This document shows positions 25,316-35,919 of a stretch of DNA of 64,000 bases, piece by piece. The notes under the pieces were generated by a model. The model had not been told where the DNA came from and searched no databases. It worked only from the letters and a program-made list of their open reading frames with translations. The position numbers and the translations under genes are program-made. The first letter of the stretch is position 1. Each line of letters opens with the position of its first letter. Origin of the DNA: the human T2T-CHM13v2.0 reference genome, Homo sapiens; NCBI RefSeq assembly GCF_009914755.1, contig NC_060941.1. The stretch is one strand, 5' to 3'.

Positions 25316-25408
25316 AAAAAACACAACAGCAGCAGCTCAGCCCTTCTGAACAGCCCCACAGTAACAACAAGCTCATGTGCAGGGGCCAGTGAGAAAAAGA
25401 AATTTTTG
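25316..25408 (+). CDS. MAP3K3: MAP3K3 alternative in-frame cassette exon (31 aa, long isoform)
   Basis: Acceptor tttttttgtttttaaAG, 93 nt, phase 0/0, KKHNSSSSALLNSPTVTTSSCAGASEKKKFL, donor GTAAGG; matches the insert I recall in the long MEKK3 isoform. Confidence 0.9.
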
Positions 25409-25782: not shown

Positions 25783-27203
25783 TGACTTTATGCACTATGT
25801 AAGGGACTGTTGATTTATTGGGCAAGAAATTATGTATATGCTTGGAGATGTGTAGATATTCATTGGTATGTTCATTCCTTACACACGTCATGAGTTTCTG
25901 TACATTGTGATAAGCTAATAATGGGAATCCTACCTAAGATTTCTGTTTTAGGAAGAATGTGAAGATGTGGAACTAGAACAGCTGTTTAGAAATTGAAGCT
26001 CAAAGTTTTATGTTAATATGGGCAAAAGGGGAAATAAAATGCTAAGATAGCTTTTCCTCTTAATGAAGTCAAGGTTATAGAATGGCCTGTCCTGGGAAGT
26101 GTAGCAGATGTTTTGCTTCTGACCAAGAGGGATATTCTTCAGCAAAATTCTGAAAGCAGAAAAAGACAAAGTCTCAGCAAATGCATTTCTAGGAAAGATA
26201 GGGTAAGAGGCAGTGCGGGGAAGATGTTGGGGAGAGGTATTTATAGCCTAGTATAATGAAAGGAGCCTGGTGATATTAATAATCATTTAACATCGGATTT
26301 TATAATTCACAGAGTTACACATTTATTATTATTATTGTAGTTTTTGTTAGCCTAGGCCTGAGATAGAATGAAACAGTTTTCTTCATTACCAGTTCTTCTG
26401 CCAGAAAGTCCATGCTTAGGAAGAGAGAGGAATGAAAGATCAAAACCTAATTTAAATGGTGAAGAGTTGCCAAATTTGGTTAAGAAATGTCTAATTGGAT
26501 TACAGATTCAAATTACAGAGTCCCAGTTGAAAGAAGCTAAGCATTTTGGCTAGCTGGAAAGGTTGTTTATTCAAGGGTGGAATGGGGCTGGCAGAGGCAA
26601 ACAGCCTTTCACTATGAGAATGGCAGTGCTGGCTACAAGGCAGAGTCGAGACTGGCACAGCTTCATGGAGCTCAAGCTTGGCCCAGCAAGGAAAGCCAGA
26701 GGAGCTGTGGGTTCATTAACAGGATTGTTTGGGTGCCGAGGCCTGGAAGAACTGAAAAATCTAATTTAATATCTCTGCTTAGCAAGACTTGAGACATCCT
26801 TTTCCCTAAGTAAACAAGCTTGGTAAGTAATTGAAAAAGAGAATGGATTTGAGAACAAATAGGCAGCTATGGAAGTACATGGGCAGTGAGCTATTAACAA
26901 TTTTCTAGGAGGTAGATTCTGTATTCTCTGTATTCTAGGAGTACAGAGAATACTGTACACTAGGAGCATTTGCTGTATTCTCCCTTTTGTATATTGGGTC
27001 TCTGGAAGCCTACAGCGTGGTTAGAGCTGACTGAATATTCTTAGATGTGTGGCACATCCTACGTGTGGCTGGGTCCTATGGATAGTTTTGCAGGCCATGA
27101 TGTGCAGTGTCCCTTTAGCAGTCATTAACTCACAGTGAGTTATCAATGGGTGTTAGTTCTCTGTGGGTCTGACAACTTAGTATAGTGAAAAGAGTGCTGG
27201 CCT

Positions 27204-27818
27204 GTGGCTGAACATGCTGGAGAAGAGCTTGCCTGGCCACAGGGACACAGCCACGCAGATCCAGCATGTGTCTCCCATGTGCCAAGTGGAGCCCCCAGCC
27301 AAGAAGGCAGCCACACTAGCAGAGGGTGACAAGGACAATGACATTGACCTGTTTGTCAGCGACAATGAGGAGGAAGACAAGGAGGCAGCCCGGCTGTGGG
27401 AGAAGTGGCTGAGGTGGTATGTGGAGAAGAAGGCCAAGAAGACTGCGTTGGTGGTCAAGTCCTCCATCCCGCTGGACATCAAGCCTTGGGACAATGAGAC
27501 CAATATAGCCCAATTGGAGGCCTGTATGCGCTTCATCCAGCTGGACGGGCTGGTCTAGGGGGGCCTCCAAGCTGGTGCCCATGGGCTACGGTATCCGGAA
27601 GCTGCAGATTCAGTGTGTGGTGGGGGACGACAAGGTGGGGACAAACTTTCTGGAAGAGGAGATTACCAAGTTTGAGAGCGTGTGTAGAGTGTCGATGTTG
27701 CAGCTTTCAACAAGGTCTGAAGCCTTAGAGTGTGTGTGCGTGCATGCGCACGTGTGCAAGTGTGTGAGGCCCTGCCACTATTAAAAACTGAGACCAACCA
27801 AAAAAAAAAAAAAAAAAA
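27204..27818 (+). pseudogene. EEF1DP7: 5'-truncated processed pseudogene of EEF1D (probably EEF1DP7) in a MAP3K3 intron
   Basis: ...[17 protein letters not shown]...[15 protein letters not shown]...[20 protein letters not shown]; TGG>TAG at 27556 and frameshifts; ATTAAA at 27780; poly-A tail; TSD aaaagagt(g/a)ctggcct at 27188-27203 and 27815-27830. The pseudogene number is from memory. Confidence 0.9.
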
Positions 27819-28698
27819 GAGTACTGGCCTAGGAGTCATAGAGTTGTTACTCATCTATTAATGTAGGATTTTATAATTTATAGAGTGCTTTCAACAACAG
27901 TTAACATCAATGCTATAAGCATGTGTATAAGGTTTACACAGCTTTTACACAAAGGTATTGAGTAGAGGCAGGAAGTAAATCCAAGCCTTCTGATTCCTAG
28001 TCACCGTAATTTTACCATGTATAAGTCATATAACCTTTCTGAAGTGAGTTTTTCCATCTGAAATATAGACTTAATACTCACTGTGTCTACCTCTTAAGAT
28101 TGTTGTAAGATCATAGACAGAATGTGAAATATTTTGTACATTGTAAAACAAATGTACAAATGTGAAGTTGCAGTGGTTATGTCACTTCTTATGTTCTGGC
28201 ACTGCAGGTGTGAGCTTTGGGGAAAGCTTCTAACTACAACTGTCCATAGTGTTGTGGAACTGAAAGGATTAAGGTTTTTCTCTCTTTATGGGATTATCAT
28301 TACTGTTTATCTGATGATCTTTGCAAATTTCTGAAGCTAGCCTAATTTCTGAAAATCCCAGTGGAGGAAGAAATGGAATCCTTATTTCCATGGATTCCTG
28401 TTTCCCTTGAATCTTATCAAAATGGTAGGTAGATACTTGAACAGAGTCTGGGCTCTGGATCTAACCCTCCAGATGTTCATGAGTGGGTGCTTCAGAACAG
28501 AAAAGCTGCTTTCTTCATGATAGGCACAAGCAGGGCAGGGCCTTGGCTATCATTTCTAGAGGAAGAGAATTCCAGGATCTGTTCCCCCAGCAGGGTCAGT
28601 GATTGAGCAGACTGTCTTTTGCTTTCAGTGTGAAAGACCTGGCTCTTCAGGACCTCCCTTCTCTTTCAAGGGTTGTTGATAAGATGGGCTGGCCAGTT

Positions 28699-28963
28699 TG
28701 AAAATAAAATATAAAACAACACACAAGCCTGGCATTATATTTTGTAAGAAGATTGCTTTATAATCGTCTCTTCCACTGATCTCCTACAACTTTCCAGAGT
28801 CATGCTTAAAAATAAAATTTTAATTTTTGTTGTATTTTTTTTTCCTTTCATTCACTTACTCTCTTTGGCAAAATAAGGACTGCAATTCCAGAAATGTGGG
28901 GAGGCATCAAAGGTATGTAGCAAATGCAGGGAGAGAAATCAGTACAGAATCAGAGCGAGGATA
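28699..28963 (+). repeat. Left arm of 265-bp inverted duplication (non-TE sequence)
   Basis: Reverse complement of 30217-30481, 5 substitutions, no indels. Confidence 0.95.
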
Positions 28964-29372
28964 AGAAGAATGATGGGTAACTGAGGCCTTTTTCAGGTCA
29001 AGTTAGTTCATAAACCTTTGGTTAATAAATCCTGATTTTTCTGGATTCTTGAAAGCTTTTTGGGCTACATGTTCAGCTGTTGAGTCCAGACTTTGAGAAG
29101 GTCATTTCTGCTTTAGTGTTATTGTCAGTTATTCCTGTTGCTCCTGCTGAGTCCCTGAATCTGTAGCTCAACCCGACAGCCCGCACTGTCTCTCTCCTGA
29201 GCGTGGCTGTCACTACTGCTCTCACCGGATTGCCTGTGGTGGGGAGGGGACATGAAGCTGCTTAGACCTGAATTTCTGTACTAGAACTTTTTTCTCAGTA
29301 GCTGACACCTCCATTCAGTTTAACATGTGCCTATGGTCACGCTTCTCAGACACACAAAAGAAATGTATGTCG

Positions 29373-29648
29373 GTCAGGAGTGGTGGCTCATGCCTGTAAC
29401 CCCAACACTTTGGGAGGCCGAGGCAGGCGGATCACCTGGCCTGGCCAACGTGGTGAAACCCTGTCTGTACAAAAATACAAAAATTAGCTGGGCATGATGA
29501 TAGGTGCTTGTAATCCCAGCTACTTGGGAGGCTGAGGTGGGAGAATCGCTTGTACTTGGGAGGCGGAGGTTGTAGTGAGCCGAGATCACTGCACTCCAGC
29601 CTGGGCGACAGAGCAAGACTCCATCTCAGAAAAAAAAGAAAAAAGAAA
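29373..29648 (+). mobile_element. AluS inside the spacer of the inverted duplication
   Basis: Alu dimer with small deletions. Confidence 0.85.
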
Positions 29649-30216
29649 GGTATGTCATATTCCCTGTACCCCAGGAATCATGCAGTCTTACTGGGAAGTG
29701 AGGACTACATGAAAAAAAGAAAGTATGATATGACTATGCCTCACTGTGTGGTACAGAGAGTAAGTGCTATAGAAGGCCAGGAAAATGAAAGATGAGCCTG
29801 GGCCAGAGGAGCTATGGAGTCATTTCAGGTGGAAGGGCACTTGAACTAGGCTGTGAAGGAAGTATAAACAGTTAGGTAGAACGGAGGAAGGGTGGCACTC
29901 CAGGTCAGGAAACAGAATGATTAAAGGCCTAGGGGAAGAAGCAAACATGGCATGTATCAGGAAACAAGGTGAGCTTTGATCTGGCTTTAAAGGGGGGTCC
30001 CTGTGGGGAACAAACAGTGTGAGATGATCAGGTAAACTGAATGAGCCTAAATCCCAGAGGGCTTTGAGTGATAGCAGAGAATTTAGACTTTATTCCATAG
30101 ATAATGGGTATCACTGATTACCTTATGAACAAAGAAGGAACATGGTGAAAAAGGTGATTGAGATGGTTGGAACTGTAGAGGAACGCAGAGTGGGTTGGAA
30201 ATGGGGAGCTGAAATG

Positions 30217-30481
30217 TATCCTCACTCTGATTCTGTACTGATTTCTCTCCCTGCATTTGCTACATACCTTTGATGCCTCCCCACATTTCTGGAATTGCAG
30301 TCCTTATTTTGCCAAAGAGAGTAAGTGAATGAAAGGAAAAAAAAATACAACAAAAATTAAAATTTTATTTTTAAGCATGACTCTGGAAAGTTGTAGGAGA
30401 TCAGTGGAAGAGATGATTATAAAGCAACCTTCTTACAAAATATAATGCCAGGCTTGTGTGTTGCTTTATATCTTATTTTCA
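30217..30481 (-). repeat. Right arm of 265-bp inverted duplication
   Basis: Reverse complement of 28699-28963; followed by a 26-bp perfect palindrome at 30483-30508. Confidence 0.95.
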
Positions 30482-30740
30482 GCTTTATACATTTATAAAT
30501 GTATAAAGATATAATGCTTTATATCTTATTGACTCTGGGATCAAGGGGAAAGGGTCTCACTGAAGGTGATGTCAGGGAGAATGGGAAGCAGAGTCTTATA
30601 CCGGAGGTCTTTGAGAGGAGAATTGAAATTTGCTCCCTGGCTGTGAGGAGGAAAAGGAAGGAAAGAATCAAGCATTACTCAGAGATGTAACTGTGTAGCT
30701 GGGAGCACAGCAGTACCAATGTTAGAAATAGTGACACTGA

Positions 30741-30905
30741 GCCAGGCATGGTGACATGCGCCTGTAGTCCAAGCTGCTTGGGAGGCTGAGGCAGGAGGAT
30801 CACTTGAACCCAGGAGCTCAAATCTGTAGCGCACAGTGATTGTGCCTGTGAATAGCTACTGCACTCCAGCCTGGGCAACATAGCGAGACCCCATCTCTGA
30901 AAAGA
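30741..30905 (+). mobile_element. FAM (fossil Alu monomer)
   Basis: Monomer retaining the 7SL-like gcctgtgaatagctactgcactccagcc segment. Confidence 0.7.
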
Positions 30906-31765
30906 AAGTAATAGTTGAGAAGGGAGACTAGTTTAGGAGAGTAGTTGATATAGACACATATGGCTAGATTGAGTTTGAGATTACAGTGGGAAAAAACCTC
31001 AAGAGTGTGTGAGGTATGTGTATGTGTGTACGTTGATTTTTGCAGGTCCATAATCTGTTATCTGCAGTTCTGAGATCCAAACAGTACTACAAACTAAAGG
31101 GGTATTTTTAGTTTTTAGTTTCTATTTATTATTTTTTAATTTGTAGCAGACTCATTTGGCAACCAGACCTGTCCTGAATAGACACAGGGCAATTTATGGT
31201 CTTTCTTTATTCTACTTATTGTGAATATTCATACTTTTCATTGCAAAAATTAGGATAGCTTCGATAAAAAGCATGTACTCTGTTAACAAATAGACTCCAA
31301 ATCTCAGTGATTTAACACAGTATTCCCAGTACAAGGAGGGGGAGAACAGTGTTGCCCAGAGTTACTTAGGAACCTGGATTGAGGGAGACTCCTCTGTCCT
31401 AGGACATGTGCCTGCCAGGGAAGAGAGTATAGAACTTGATTCTGTTCCTAGCTCTTGGTCAGAACTAGGGACAAACCCCCCAAACTAACTTTTAAGAGGT
31501 CCAGGAAATACTTGAGCATTCTGCCTCTACCACAGTAGTACTGTCTCAGACACCCCCCACTCCACTGCCTGGGGAGGCATCACATGATTTATAGAACATC
31601 TACCATACTACCCCTCTAAATCCAAAACATGCATTCTGAAACACTTTTGGCCCCAAGAATTTTGGCTAAAGGATAATAGACCTGTATTACCATTTACCAA
31701 CCACTTGTATATCAGGTACTGTTCTAATCACTTTACCCAATTATATGATTTAATTCTTTTGATAA

Positions 31766-32195
<430 letters not shown>

Positions 32196-32985
32196 GTTCG
32201 AGGTTACACAGCTAGGAAGTTGTAGAGCCAAGATTTGAAGCAGGCAGTTGGACTCCAGTGCTACATTCTTAACAACTATATATTGGCCTCAGATACGTGG
32301 CAAGCAGATGAGCCTTGCTTCAGTGATTGGGGCTACATATAGAGATTGAGGAATCATCTATTTAGAGGCCCACTGAGAAGTTGTATGCAGAGCAGGAGAA
32401 AGCCAGAAGTCAGAAGTCGCAAGGTTGAGGAATGGTCATGTGTTTGGGGAGGGGTGGGAGAGGGCATGAACAAGAGGAACCAGCAAAGAAGCAGAAGTGG
32501 TCAGAGTGGTAGCAGGTTCCCTGTGCTGGGATAGAGTCACAGAAGTTGGAAATAGAGTTGGCCACCCACCAGTGTGAAATGCCTCAGAGAGGACAAGAAG
32601 AATGGCTGGCCGGAAGGCATTGAATCAAATTATCTTTATCTGAACTTCCCTTATCTATGGCTTATTATGGTCAACCTGATGGGTGAAATTCAGATTTAGG
32701 GACTCAGAAGATTTGGGCATATCATGTGGTTCATGGAAGCTTGTAAGGCTGTCATGGCATCAAAGAAGCATCTTTGTTTACACTGCTTTTTAGTCACAGG
32801 CTTGGTTAGTCTTAAGTAGCAGTGATTTGTGGTTTGGAACAAAAGTTTAATTCCCTTTCTGAATAAATTCATGTAGAGCAGTGCTTAGGTTATGGCTCGT
32901 TATGAAATAAATTTAGTTCCTTCATTTCCATAAAGGCACTGAGGAGATTCCTTCATTAGTATATCTAAATATAATGTTGTCCCAG

Positions 32986-35919
<2,934 letters not shown>

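What the first reader, a model, noticed from the sequence alone, without database searches (positions are those of the whole stretch)
28699..30481. 265-bp near-perfect inverted duplication of unique intronic sequence: hidden pre-mRNA duplex and candidate micro-inversion
Seen: 28699-28963 is the reverse complement of 30217-30481 with no indels and 5 transitions (28708, 28716, 28752, 28766, 28956). About 189 bp in the core are identical, and the spacer is 1253 bp. The arms do not resemble any TE I recognise, so repeat masking would miss them. In the MAP3K3 pre-mRNA the arms can form a ~265-bp duplex, far more perfect than typical inverted Alu pairs. Four of the five mismatches are A-C pairs and one is G-U. 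Established: A opposite C is a preferred ADAR context, and highly identical inverted repeats mediate recurrent inversions and gene conversion. Inference: this is a non-Alu dsRNA/editing element in the intron downstream of the regulated cassette exon, and/or a polymorphic ~1.25-kb inversion.
Basis: partly seen in the sequence, partly recalled or inferred. Interest (0 to 1): 0.8.

Follow-up and report, generated by a model that had tools for sequence, protein, structure and literature searches.

The report
Small inverted duplication in MAP3K3 intron
A 265-base stretch of unique intron sequence in the human MAP3K3 gene is present twice in opposite orientation about 1.25 kb apart; it is a real small duplication that could fold into a long RNA hairpin, but nothing yet shows it does anything.

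Summary
28699-28963 is the reverse complement of 30217-30481: 265 nt, no indels, 5 transitions, 1253-nt spacer. The arm has only these two copies in the whole T2T-CHM13 assembly. The flanks and the non-Alu spacer are also single copy, homology stops sharply at all four arm ends, and there is no target-site duplication. It is therefore a small inverted duplication of unique sequence, not a transposon.

A strand-composition classifier trained on the MAP3K3 introns puts the spacer in its native orientation in this haplotype. That favours copy-and-paste of one arm over an inversion footprint.

No inversion is listed here in a T2T-coordinate callset of 41 genomes. The arms are shorter than the 654 bp-24.2 kb repeats of known human NAHR inversions.

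In silico the arms form a -450 kcal/mol duplex that survives folding in context. ADAR editing is plausible but could not be tested.

The "A-C mismatch" point is trivial: any transition in a perfect duplex gives A·C or G·U, and 4:1 has p = 0.375.

Verdict: real, ordinary in kind, unusually clean. Interest is low to moderate.

The parts
28699..28963 (.). Left arm of the inverted duplication (265 nt, 33.6% G+C). It keeps both CpGs at which the arms differ.
30217..30481 (.). Right arm, the reverse complement of the left arm with 5 transitions and no indels.
28767..28955 (.). 189-nt stretch identical to 30225-30413 on the other arm. Four of the five differences lie in the outer 68 nt. A run this long has P = 0.0105 if 5 mismatches fall at random.
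28964..30216 (+). 1253-nt spacer. Apart from one Alu it is single copy. Its strand composition matches the rest of the MAP3K3 introns, so it is in native orientation in this haplotype.
29372..29640 (+). Alu inside the spacer (7 CpG left) with a 16-nt target-site duplication at 29356-29371 and 29641-29656 (15 of 16 identical). Sub-threshold SRP-like Rfam matches.
30483..30508 (.). 26-nt perfect AT-rich palindrome starting 2 nt after the last base of the right arm. It is the only perfect palindrome of 20 nt or more in the 64-kb window. Candidate break site or repair scar.
30462..30530 (+). 16-nt direct repeat: 30462-30477 (inside the outer end of the right arm) and 30515-30530 (outside it), 16 of 16 identical, bracketing the palindrome. 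The left-arm equivalent differs from both at 2 positions.

Best explanation
This is a small, single-locus inverted duplication of formerly unique MAP3K3 intron sequence. It is a repair or replication scar, not a mobile element.

Origin. One arm is a blunt-ended, reverse-complement copy of the other, placed about 1.25 kb away. The distance was about 0.97 kb if the Alu in between came later. The segment between the arms was not inverted. The event most likely happened at a DNA break, or through a long-range template switch, next to the AT-rich 26-nt palindrome that abuts the right arm. Which arm is the copy cannot be told without an outgroup.

Age. Raw divergence of 5/265 (1.9%; Poisson 95% interval 0.6-4.4%) puts the last common state of the arms at roughly 3-44 My, depending on the rate used. 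That is ape-age, possibly older. The 189-nt identical core against 4 differences in the outer 68 nt suggests that arm-to-arm gene conversion, or template-switch 'stem fixing', has homogenised the core.

Consequence. Both arms lie in one intron on the transcribed strand. The pre-mRNA can therefore fold into a 265-bp hairpin with four A·C mismatches and one G·U wobble pair, and a 1.25-kb loop. I infer that this hairpin forms in part of the transcripts and is deaminated promiscuously by ADAR1, then removed with the intron. I expect no effect on the cassette exon 3.3 kb upstream and no cytoplasmic dsRNA.

Shown: the anatomy, the uniqueness, the sharp edges, the native spacer orientation and the thermodynamic pairing. 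Inferred: the mechanism of origin, gene conversion, editing and neutrality.
For: - Exact 265-nt inverted pair with 5 transitions and no indels.
- Only two copies of the arm in the 3.1-Gb assembly.
- Flanks and non-Alu spacer have no other match at E <= 10. The exceptions are 7 short hits to an 80-nt stretch at 27750-27829 and the palindrome's self-match.
- No homology beyond the arm ends.
- No TSD and no junction microhomology in either polarity.
- Strand classifier (Markov models on 2- to 5-mers; Alu- and exon-masked; leave-one-out): 34-36 of 39 native 952-nt windows have LLR > 0. The spacer scores +9.2 to +29.4 and both of its halves are positive. Its reverse complement scores -9.0 to -30.0, below the lowest native window (-3.6 to -5.8).
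- GC skew of the spacer is +0.215. None of 49 other windows is at or below -0.215.
- The only perfect palindrome of 20 nt or more in 64 kb abuts the right arm.
- Non-random mismatch placement, P = 0.0105.
- Duplex energy -449.6 kcal/mol. 260 of 265 in-register pairs are kept in the MFE fold of the 1783-nt element and of a 2783-nt context.
- No RefSeq exon overlaps the arms (hub annotation).
- Literature context. Template switching can create reverse-complement repeats and fix existing stems (abstract and passages of PMC8794818). Predicted dsRNAs within protein-coding gene loci are 96% intronic, with loops of about 2 kb on average over all predicted dsRNAs (sections of PMC11838218).
Against: - No outgroup or second human haplotype could be examined. 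Polarity, age and fixation are therefore unverified.
- All four junctions lack microhomology. That fits end-joining better than a replicative template switch, and described template-switch events are tens of bases, not 265 nt over 1 kb.
- The 16-nt direct repeat shared by the right arm's outer end and its flank is not explained by a simple one-step insertion.
- The 189-nt-run test and the palindrome adjacency are post hoc.
- The strand classifier is a proxy for ancestral orientation. It misclassifies 3-5 of 39 windows.
- The absence of an inversion call rests on held supplement text that may be cut, and on callers with unknown sensitivity for a 1.25-kb segment between 265-nt repeats.
- Editing and neutrality are inference only.
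Confidence: 0.6

Rival explanations
1. Footprint of an evolutionary micro-inversion made by staggered breaks. A 265-nt staggered cut at one breakpoint was filled in, and the 1.25-kb segment was re-joined in reverse, leaving inverted duplications of unique sequence at its ends. On this reading the repeat is a result of an inversion, not a cause of one.
For: - The anatomy fits: an inverted duplication of ancestrally unique sequence flanking a segment, with blunt junctions.
- In Drosophila, 17 of 29 fixed inversions carry such duplications, with a median of 321 bp. [quoted passage not shown]
- The odd palindrome and direct repeat sit at a junction that would be novel under one version of the model.
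Against: - The spacer has the strand composition of the surrounding introns, and its reverse complement scores below every native window.
- GC skew: 0 of 49 windows are as negative as the inverted spacer would have been.
- This test would be blind if the segment has since flipped back by recombination between the arms.
Confidence: 0.1
2. A currently polymorphic or recurrently toggling 1.25-kb inversion in human populations, driven by non-allelic homologous recombination between the arms.
For: - 98% identical inverted arms with a 189-nt perfect stretch, only 1.25 kb apart.
- In NAHR inversions, the ratio of repeat length to inversion length correlates positively with frequency. Here that ratio is 0.21.
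Against: - No inversion is listed at chr17 64.50-64.51 Mb among the chr17 rows of the T2T-coordinate callset of 41 genomes. That callset includes PAV calls of about 2 kb.
- No hit in the held supplement of the 1,019-genome study or of the inversion benchmark.
- Known human NAHR inversions use repeats of 654 bp-24.2 kb.
- About 85% of inversions under 2 kbp in 41 genomes are L1 twin-priming products (abstract).
Confidence: 0.1
3. A selected RNA element: a non-Alu intronic hairpin kept near-perfect because it recruits ADAR or other dsRNA-binding proteins, or because it shapes splicing of the upstream cassette exon 25316-25408.
For: - Very stable predicted duplex.
- An identical core longer than chance predicts.
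- Non-repetitive predicted dsRNAs are sparse, about 2 per Mb, with median lengths of 75-144 bp. This one is therefore at the long, well-paired end of the range.
Against: - Both arms lie in the same intron, 3.3 kb from the exon, so the pairing only loops out 1.25 kb of an 11.2-kb intron.
- The identical core is equally explained by gene conversion.
- No compensatory changes are seen: all 5 differences break or weaken pairs.
- No paper links MAP3K3 to an inverted repeat, to intronic editing or to an inversion (listings only).
- No Rfam family matches the arms.
Confidence: 0.06
4. A DNA transposon with long terminal inverted repeats, or a pair of fragments of one old dispersed repeat.
For: Terminal inverted repeats around an internal segment are the form of such elements.
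Against: - Two copies only in the assembly, with no weaker relatives at E <= 10.
- The 10 nt on either side are unrelated, so there is no TSD.
- 98% arm identity would be far too young for human DNA transposons (recalled general knowledge).
- Caveat: the genome search skips very common words and may miss copies about 30% diverged.
Confidence: 0.03
5. Assembly artefact in T2T-CHM13 (chimeric fold-back).
For: None found. It is listed because only this assembly could be examined.
Against: - The arms differ by 5 transitions, 2 of them CpG decay, with no homopolymer-length differences.
- They are separated by 1253 nt of ordinary sequence that holds an Alu with its own TSD.
- Fold-back artefacts have no such spacer or divergence (general knowledge).
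Confidence: 0.02

Closest known systems
Inverted Alu pairs (IRAlus) in introns, the main human ADAR substrates
   Same: Two reverse-complementary arms of about 250-300 nt in one intron, a kilobase-scale loop, and predicted intramolecular dsRNA.
   Different: The arms are single-copy sequence, not a repeat family. They are 98% rather than 76-90% complementary. They arose by local duplication, not by two independent insertions.
Non-repetitive predicted dsRNAs of the human genome (dsRNAscan catalogue, PMC11838218)
   Same: An intronic, non-repeat, highly paired hairpin. That survey reports about 2 such dsRNAs per Mb.
   Different: It is longer than the class medians of 75-144 bp. It falls just under the survey's '>300 bp and >96% paired' class of 2,018, which is mostly LINE pairs and 88% intergenic.
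Inversion-associated inverted duplications from staggered breaks (Ranz et al. 2007, PMC1885836)
   Same: An inverted duplication of ancestrally unique sequence, of similar size (median 321 bp there), with end-joined borders.
   Different: Here the enclosed segment appears not to be inverted. The scale is 1.25 kb within an intron, not a chromosomal inversion.
Short-range template-switch mutations that create or repair hairpins (Löytynoja & Goldman; Mönttinen & Löytynoja, PMC8794818)
   Same: A single event that writes a reverse-complement copy of nearby sequence, and that can later re-fix stem pairing.
   Different: Described events are tens of bases and short-range; the largest pattern in that paper is 59 bp. 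This one is 265 nt copied over about 1 kb, without microhomology at the switch points.
Palindromes of the sex chromosomes with arm-to-arm gene conversion, and IR-flanked NAHR inversions
   Same: Near-identical inverted arms around a unique spacer. Homogenisation of the arms is a plausible reason for the identical core.
   Different: The arms are 265 nt, against kilobases to megabases (recalled), and against 654 bp-24.2 kb for genotyped NAHR inversions. No second orientation is on record.

Membership tests
Intramolecular dsRNA / ADAR editing-enriched region | Two reverse-complementary arms able to pair within one transcript | tested here: met
   260 of 265 in-register pairs in MFE folds of 1783 nt and 2783 nt; duplex energy -449.6 kcal/mol. 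Both arms lie in one MAP3K3 intron on the + strand (hub annotation).
Intramolecular dsRNA / ADAR editing-enriched region | Clusters of A-to-G differences between RNA and DNA | not testable with these tools
   No RNA-seq or editing database on hand. MAP3K3 is absent from the held supplement of PMC12695637.
NAHR-mediated polymorphic inversion | Highly identical inverted repeats at both breakpoints | tested here: met
   98% identity over 265 nt with a 189-nt perfect run. The arms are shorter than the 654 bp-24.2 kb of 24 known cases.
NAHR-mediated polymorphic inversion | Both orientations observed among haplotypes | tested here: not met
   No row at chr17 64.50-64.51 Mb in the held T2T-coordinate callset of 41 genomes. 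No hit. This is a limited test, because the held tables may be cut and caller sensitivity is unknown.
DNA transposon with terminal inverted repeats | Target-site duplication flanking the element | tested here: not met
   The 10 nt on either side of the element are unrelated.
DNA transposon with terminal inverted repeats | Multiple related copies in the genome | tested here: not met
   Two matches only, namely the two arms. No weaker matches at E <= 10.
Staggered-break inversion with flanking inverted duplication | The enclosed segment is inverted relative to the ancestral order | tested here: not met
   Tested by proxy only. The spacer's strand-composition LLR is +9.2 to +29.4, against native windows with means of 6-9 and minima of -3.6 to -5.8. 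GC skew agrees. No outgroup was available.
Template-switch mutation | Reverse-complement copy of nearby sequence created in one event, shown by comparison with the ancestral state | not testable with these tools
   The reverse-complement copy is present. The ancestral state is unknown. The size (265 nt over about 1 kb) and the lack of microhomology are atypical compared.
Segmental duplication (conventional definition: at least 1 kb and at least 90% identity; recalled) | Length of at least 1 kb | tested here: not met
   The arms are 265 nt with sharp edges.

The most novel reading that the evidence does not exclude
The arms are kept near-identical by ongoing arm-to-arm conversion. They make one of the longest and cleanest non-repeat hairpins in an expressed human pre-mRNA. 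This nuclear dsRNA would be heavily edited by ADAR1 and would have a measurable effect, either on MAP3K3 intron processing or cassette-exon choice, or as a dsRNA source when the intron is retained. The same arms would occasionally flip the 1.25-kb spacer in human lineages, at a frequency below what 41 genomes reveal.
Probability: 0.07. Interest if true: 0.6.

Novelty: new member of a known kind. Interest (0 to 1): 0.3.

Why it matters
If the hairpin forms in cells, it is a clean single-copy test object. Reads map to it uniquely, unlike reads from Alu pairs. That makes it useful for studying ADAR hyper-editing of long near-perfect intronic dsRNA, and for asking whether such structures are tolerated because they never leave the nucleus.

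At the DNA level it is a compact example of how unique sequence becomes an inverted repeat next to a palindrome, and of possible conversion between arms only 265 nt long.

None of this changes what is known about MAP3K3, and thousands of non-repeat predicted dsRNAs already exist in catalogues.

Tried and rejected
- Decayed larger repeat. Low-stringency blastn of the two halves of 26000-33000 found nothing beyond the 265 nt except Alu-Alu matches. Rejected.
- Dispersed repeat. Three searches of the own assembly found only the two arms.
- Known RNA family. Rfam at E <= 1 gave 8 sub-threshold matches, none in the arms.
- Independent haplotype through stray human DNA in prokaryote assemblies. One exact-pattern scan of genome contigs gave 0 matches.
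- Which arm is the copy. The strand classifier gives +0.56 and +0.47 for the two arms, and the composition profile shows each arm half positive and half negative in GC skew. Both are uninformative.
- Junction microhomology. None in either polarity.
- Literature on MAP3K3. MAP3K3 with 'inverted repeat' gave 4 papers, with 'inversion' and 'breakpoint' 3 papers, and with 'A-to-I' and 'intron' 1 paper. None is relevant by title or abstract start.
- PMC11794170. Its supplementary table lists MAP3K3 only as a gene 'flanked' by repeat pairs in three assemblies, which is not this intronic pair.
- PMC13629690. The main text does not mention MAP3K3 or chr17.
- Closed or not held. Supplements were closed for PMC11838218 and PMC4365171; they may hold this locus.
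- Not used: complex prediction and the protein tools, because there is no protein question here.
Full report
**Observation.**
The feature is exactly as described. The repeat finder on 27500-31500 returns a single inverted pair, 28699-28963 and 30217-30481: 265 nt, 98% complementary, 1253 nt apart. A script lists five mismatches, all transitions, at 28708, 28716, 28752, 28766 and 28956. There are no indels, and the identical runs are 9/7/35/13/189/7 nt. Read on the + strand as RNA, the five positions give A-C, A-C, A-C, G-U and C-A. Two of the five (28766, 28956) are CpG sites. Both CpGs survive in the left arm and are lost in the right. Identity ends abruptly at all four arm ends, both in an alignment with 50-nt flanks and in a low-stringency blastn of the two halves of 26000-33000.

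**Is it a repeat family?**
It is not, as far as the tools can see.
- The left arm has two matches in the 3.1-Gb T2T-CHM13 assembly: itself and the right arm.
- Longer queries covered the flanks and the non-Alu spacer at E <= 10. They add only seven short hits to an 80-nt stretch at 27750-27829, and the self-match of a palindrome.
- The 10 nt outside the two arms are unrelated, so there is no target-site duplication.
- Rfam at E <= 1 gives eight sub-threshold matches, none in the arms. The SRP-like ones mark the Alu in the spacer (29373-29629) and another Alu at 30741-30899.
- Caveat: the genome search skips very common words and may miss copies about 30% diverged. No Dfam or RepeatMasker library was on hand.

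**How unusual is it locally?**
The window holds 81 inverted pairs of 100 nt or more within 4 kb. Of the 25 longest that the tool lists, this pair is 98% complementary and the other 24 are 76-90%.

**How did it arise?**
Three models fit an inverted duplication of unique sequence:
- (a) an inverted copy of one arm inserted about 1 kb away;
- (b) an inversion of the spacer made with a staggered break, which leaves inverted duplications at its ends, as proposed for 17 of 29 Drosophila inversions with a median duplication of 321 bp (abstract and passages of PMC1885836);
- (c) a once larger repeat that has decayed.

Model (c) is rejected by the sharp edges.

To separate (a) from (b) without an outgroup, I used the strand asymmetry of the MAP3K3 introns.
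- Markov models on 2- to 5-mers were trained on the Alu- and exon-masked transcribed part of the window. In leave-one-out tests they give 34-36 of 39 native 952-nt windows a positive log-likelihood ratio for the gene's own strand, with means of 6.2-8.7 and minima of -3.6 to -5.8.
- The spacer scores +9.2 to +29.4, and both of its halves are positive.
- Its reverse complement scores -9.0 to -30.0, below every native window.
- Plain GC skew agrees. The spacer is at +0.215, and none of 49 other windows is at or below -0.215.

The spacer in CHM13 is therefore in its long-term orientation. This favours model (a), unless an inversion later flipped back. The classifier cannot say which arm is the copy, because the two arms score +0.56 and +0.47.

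**Junctions.**
- Neither polarity shows microhomology. That fits end-joining better than a replicative template switch.
- Published template-switch events create reverse-complement repeats and repair stems, but at the scale of tens of bases (abstract and passages of PMC8794818, listings).
- The only perfect palindrome of 20 nt or more in the whole 64-kb window, 26 nt at 30483-30508, starts 2 nt after the right arm's last base. By my own arithmetic, such adjacency to one of four junctions has a chance of order 10^-3, though the test is post hoc.
- The palindrome is bracketed by a 16-nt direct repeat, 30462-30477 inside the arm and 30515-30530 outside it, 16 of 16 identical. The left-arm equivalent differs from both at the two outermost mismatch sites.
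- An 8-nt inverted repeat also brackets the right arm, at 30207-30214 and 30477-30484.
- I read this cluster as a break-prone or repair-scarred site tied to the duplication. I cannot derive a single clean event from it.

**Age and homogenisation.**
- Divergence is 5/265 = 1.9%, with a Poisson 95% interval of 0.6-4.4%.
- That corresponds to 9 My (3-22) at 1e-9 per site per year, or 19 My (6-44) at 0.5e-9 (the rates are recalled).
- Five mismatches placed at random leave a run of 189 nt or more in only 1.05% of 200,000 simulations.
- With 4 differences in the outer 68 nt and 1 in the remaining 197 nt, this suggests conversion of the core, so the duplication may be older than the raw figure.
- The Alu in the spacer has a 15/16 TSD and only 7 CpGs left. 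It is probably old, so it is likely to have been there when the copy was made (inference).

**RNA.**
- Both arms lie in the intron between the cassette exon 25316-25408 and exon 36630. That intron is 11,221 nt, or 13,220 nt when the cassette is skipped.
- The arms are 3290 nt from the cassette exon and 6148 nt from the next exon (hub annotation).
- ViennaRNA gives -449.6 kcal/mol for the arm duplex. It keeps 260 of 265 in-register pairs in the MFE of the 1783-nt element and of a 2783-nt context.
- The arms hold 92 and 85 adenosines. Of these, 56 and 53 have a 5' A or U, the favoured neighbours by recalled ADAR preferences.
- Section 9 of the dsRNAscan preprint (PMC11838218) puts 96% of predicted dsRNAs within protein-coding gene loci in introns and counts about 2 non-repetitive dsRNAs per Mb. 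Section 7 gives loops of about 2 kb on average and median lengths of 75-144 bp for non-repetitive ones. Section 10 counts only 2,018 of 5.13 million predictions as both >300 bp and >96% paired.
- This hairpin is thus at the clean, long end of a known class. Editing is likely if it forms, but I could test neither editing nor formation.
A transition in one arm of a perfect duplex can only give A·C or G·U, and 4:1 does not differ from 1:1 (p = 0.375).
- All five differences weaken pairing and none is compensatory, so there is no sign of selection for structure.

**Inversion polymorphism.**
- The held supplement of the T2T-coordinate inversion study of 41 genomes (PMC10150506) mentions chr17 33 times, including a 2,183-bp PAV call. 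It has no entry starting 64508, 64509 or 64510, and no chr17 entry starting 643-646.
- The held supplements of the 1,019-genome long-read study and of an inversion benchmark have no hit for these coordinates, for the estimated GRCh38 ones, or for the gene name. The GRCh38 and GRCh37 coordinates I searched with were estimated from recalled gene positions.
- In 24 genotyped NAHR inversions the repeats span 654 bp-24.2 kb (passages of PMC6748972).
- About 85% of inversions under 2 kbp in 41 genomes are L1 twin-priming products (abstract of the preprint).
- A common inversion here is therefore unlikely. A rare one is not excluded.

**In print?**
Searches for MAP3K3 with 'inverted repeat', with 'inversion' and 'breakpoint', and with 'A-to-I' and 'intron' returned 4, 3 and 1 papers. 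None concerns this locus by title or abstract start. A genome-wide map of repeat pairs of 200 bp or more at 80% identity or more should contain this pair. However, its held table lists MAP3K3 only as a 'flanked' gene.

**Verdict.**
This is a real, single-locus, non-transposon inverted duplication. It was most likely made by copy-and-paste next to a palindrome and partly homogenised since. It can form a long intronic hairpin, and no function has been shown for it. It is a new member of a known kind, and interest is low to moderate. Primate orthologues, pangenome haplotypes and RNA editing data would settle the open points quickly.

Noticed in passing
window 30483-30508: 26-nt perfect AT-rich palindrome, the only perfect palindrome of 20 nt or more in the 64-kb window. 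It starts 2 nt after the outer end of the right arm.
   Followed up: partly
window 30462-30477 and 30515-30530: 16-nt direct repeat, 16 of 16 identical. One copy lies inside the right arm and one outside it, bracketing the palindrome. The left-arm equivalent differs from both at 28708 and 28716. A one-step insertion does not explain it.
   Followed up: partly
window 30207-30214 and 30477-30484: 8-nt inverted repeat bracketing the right arm. The outer copy straddles the arm end. It may be chance.
   Followed up: no
window 29356-29371 / 29641-29656 and 29372-29640: Alu in the spacer with a 15/16 target-site duplication and only 7 CpGs left. A second Alu at about 30740-30911 is 77-87% similar to it.
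   Followed up: partly
window 13400-64000 (MAP3K3 introns): Strong strand-composition asymmetry. Simple Markov models on 2- to 5-mers assign the correct strand to 34-36 of 39 Alu-masked 952-nt windows in leave-one-out tests. This is useful as an outgroup-free test for recent inversions.
   Followed up: yes
window 27750-27829: An 80-nt stretch just after the EEF1DP7 pseudogene (27208-27717) has seven scattered 83-100% matches of 30-72 nt on other chromosomes. It is probably the tail or low-complexity end of the retrocopy.
   Followed up: no
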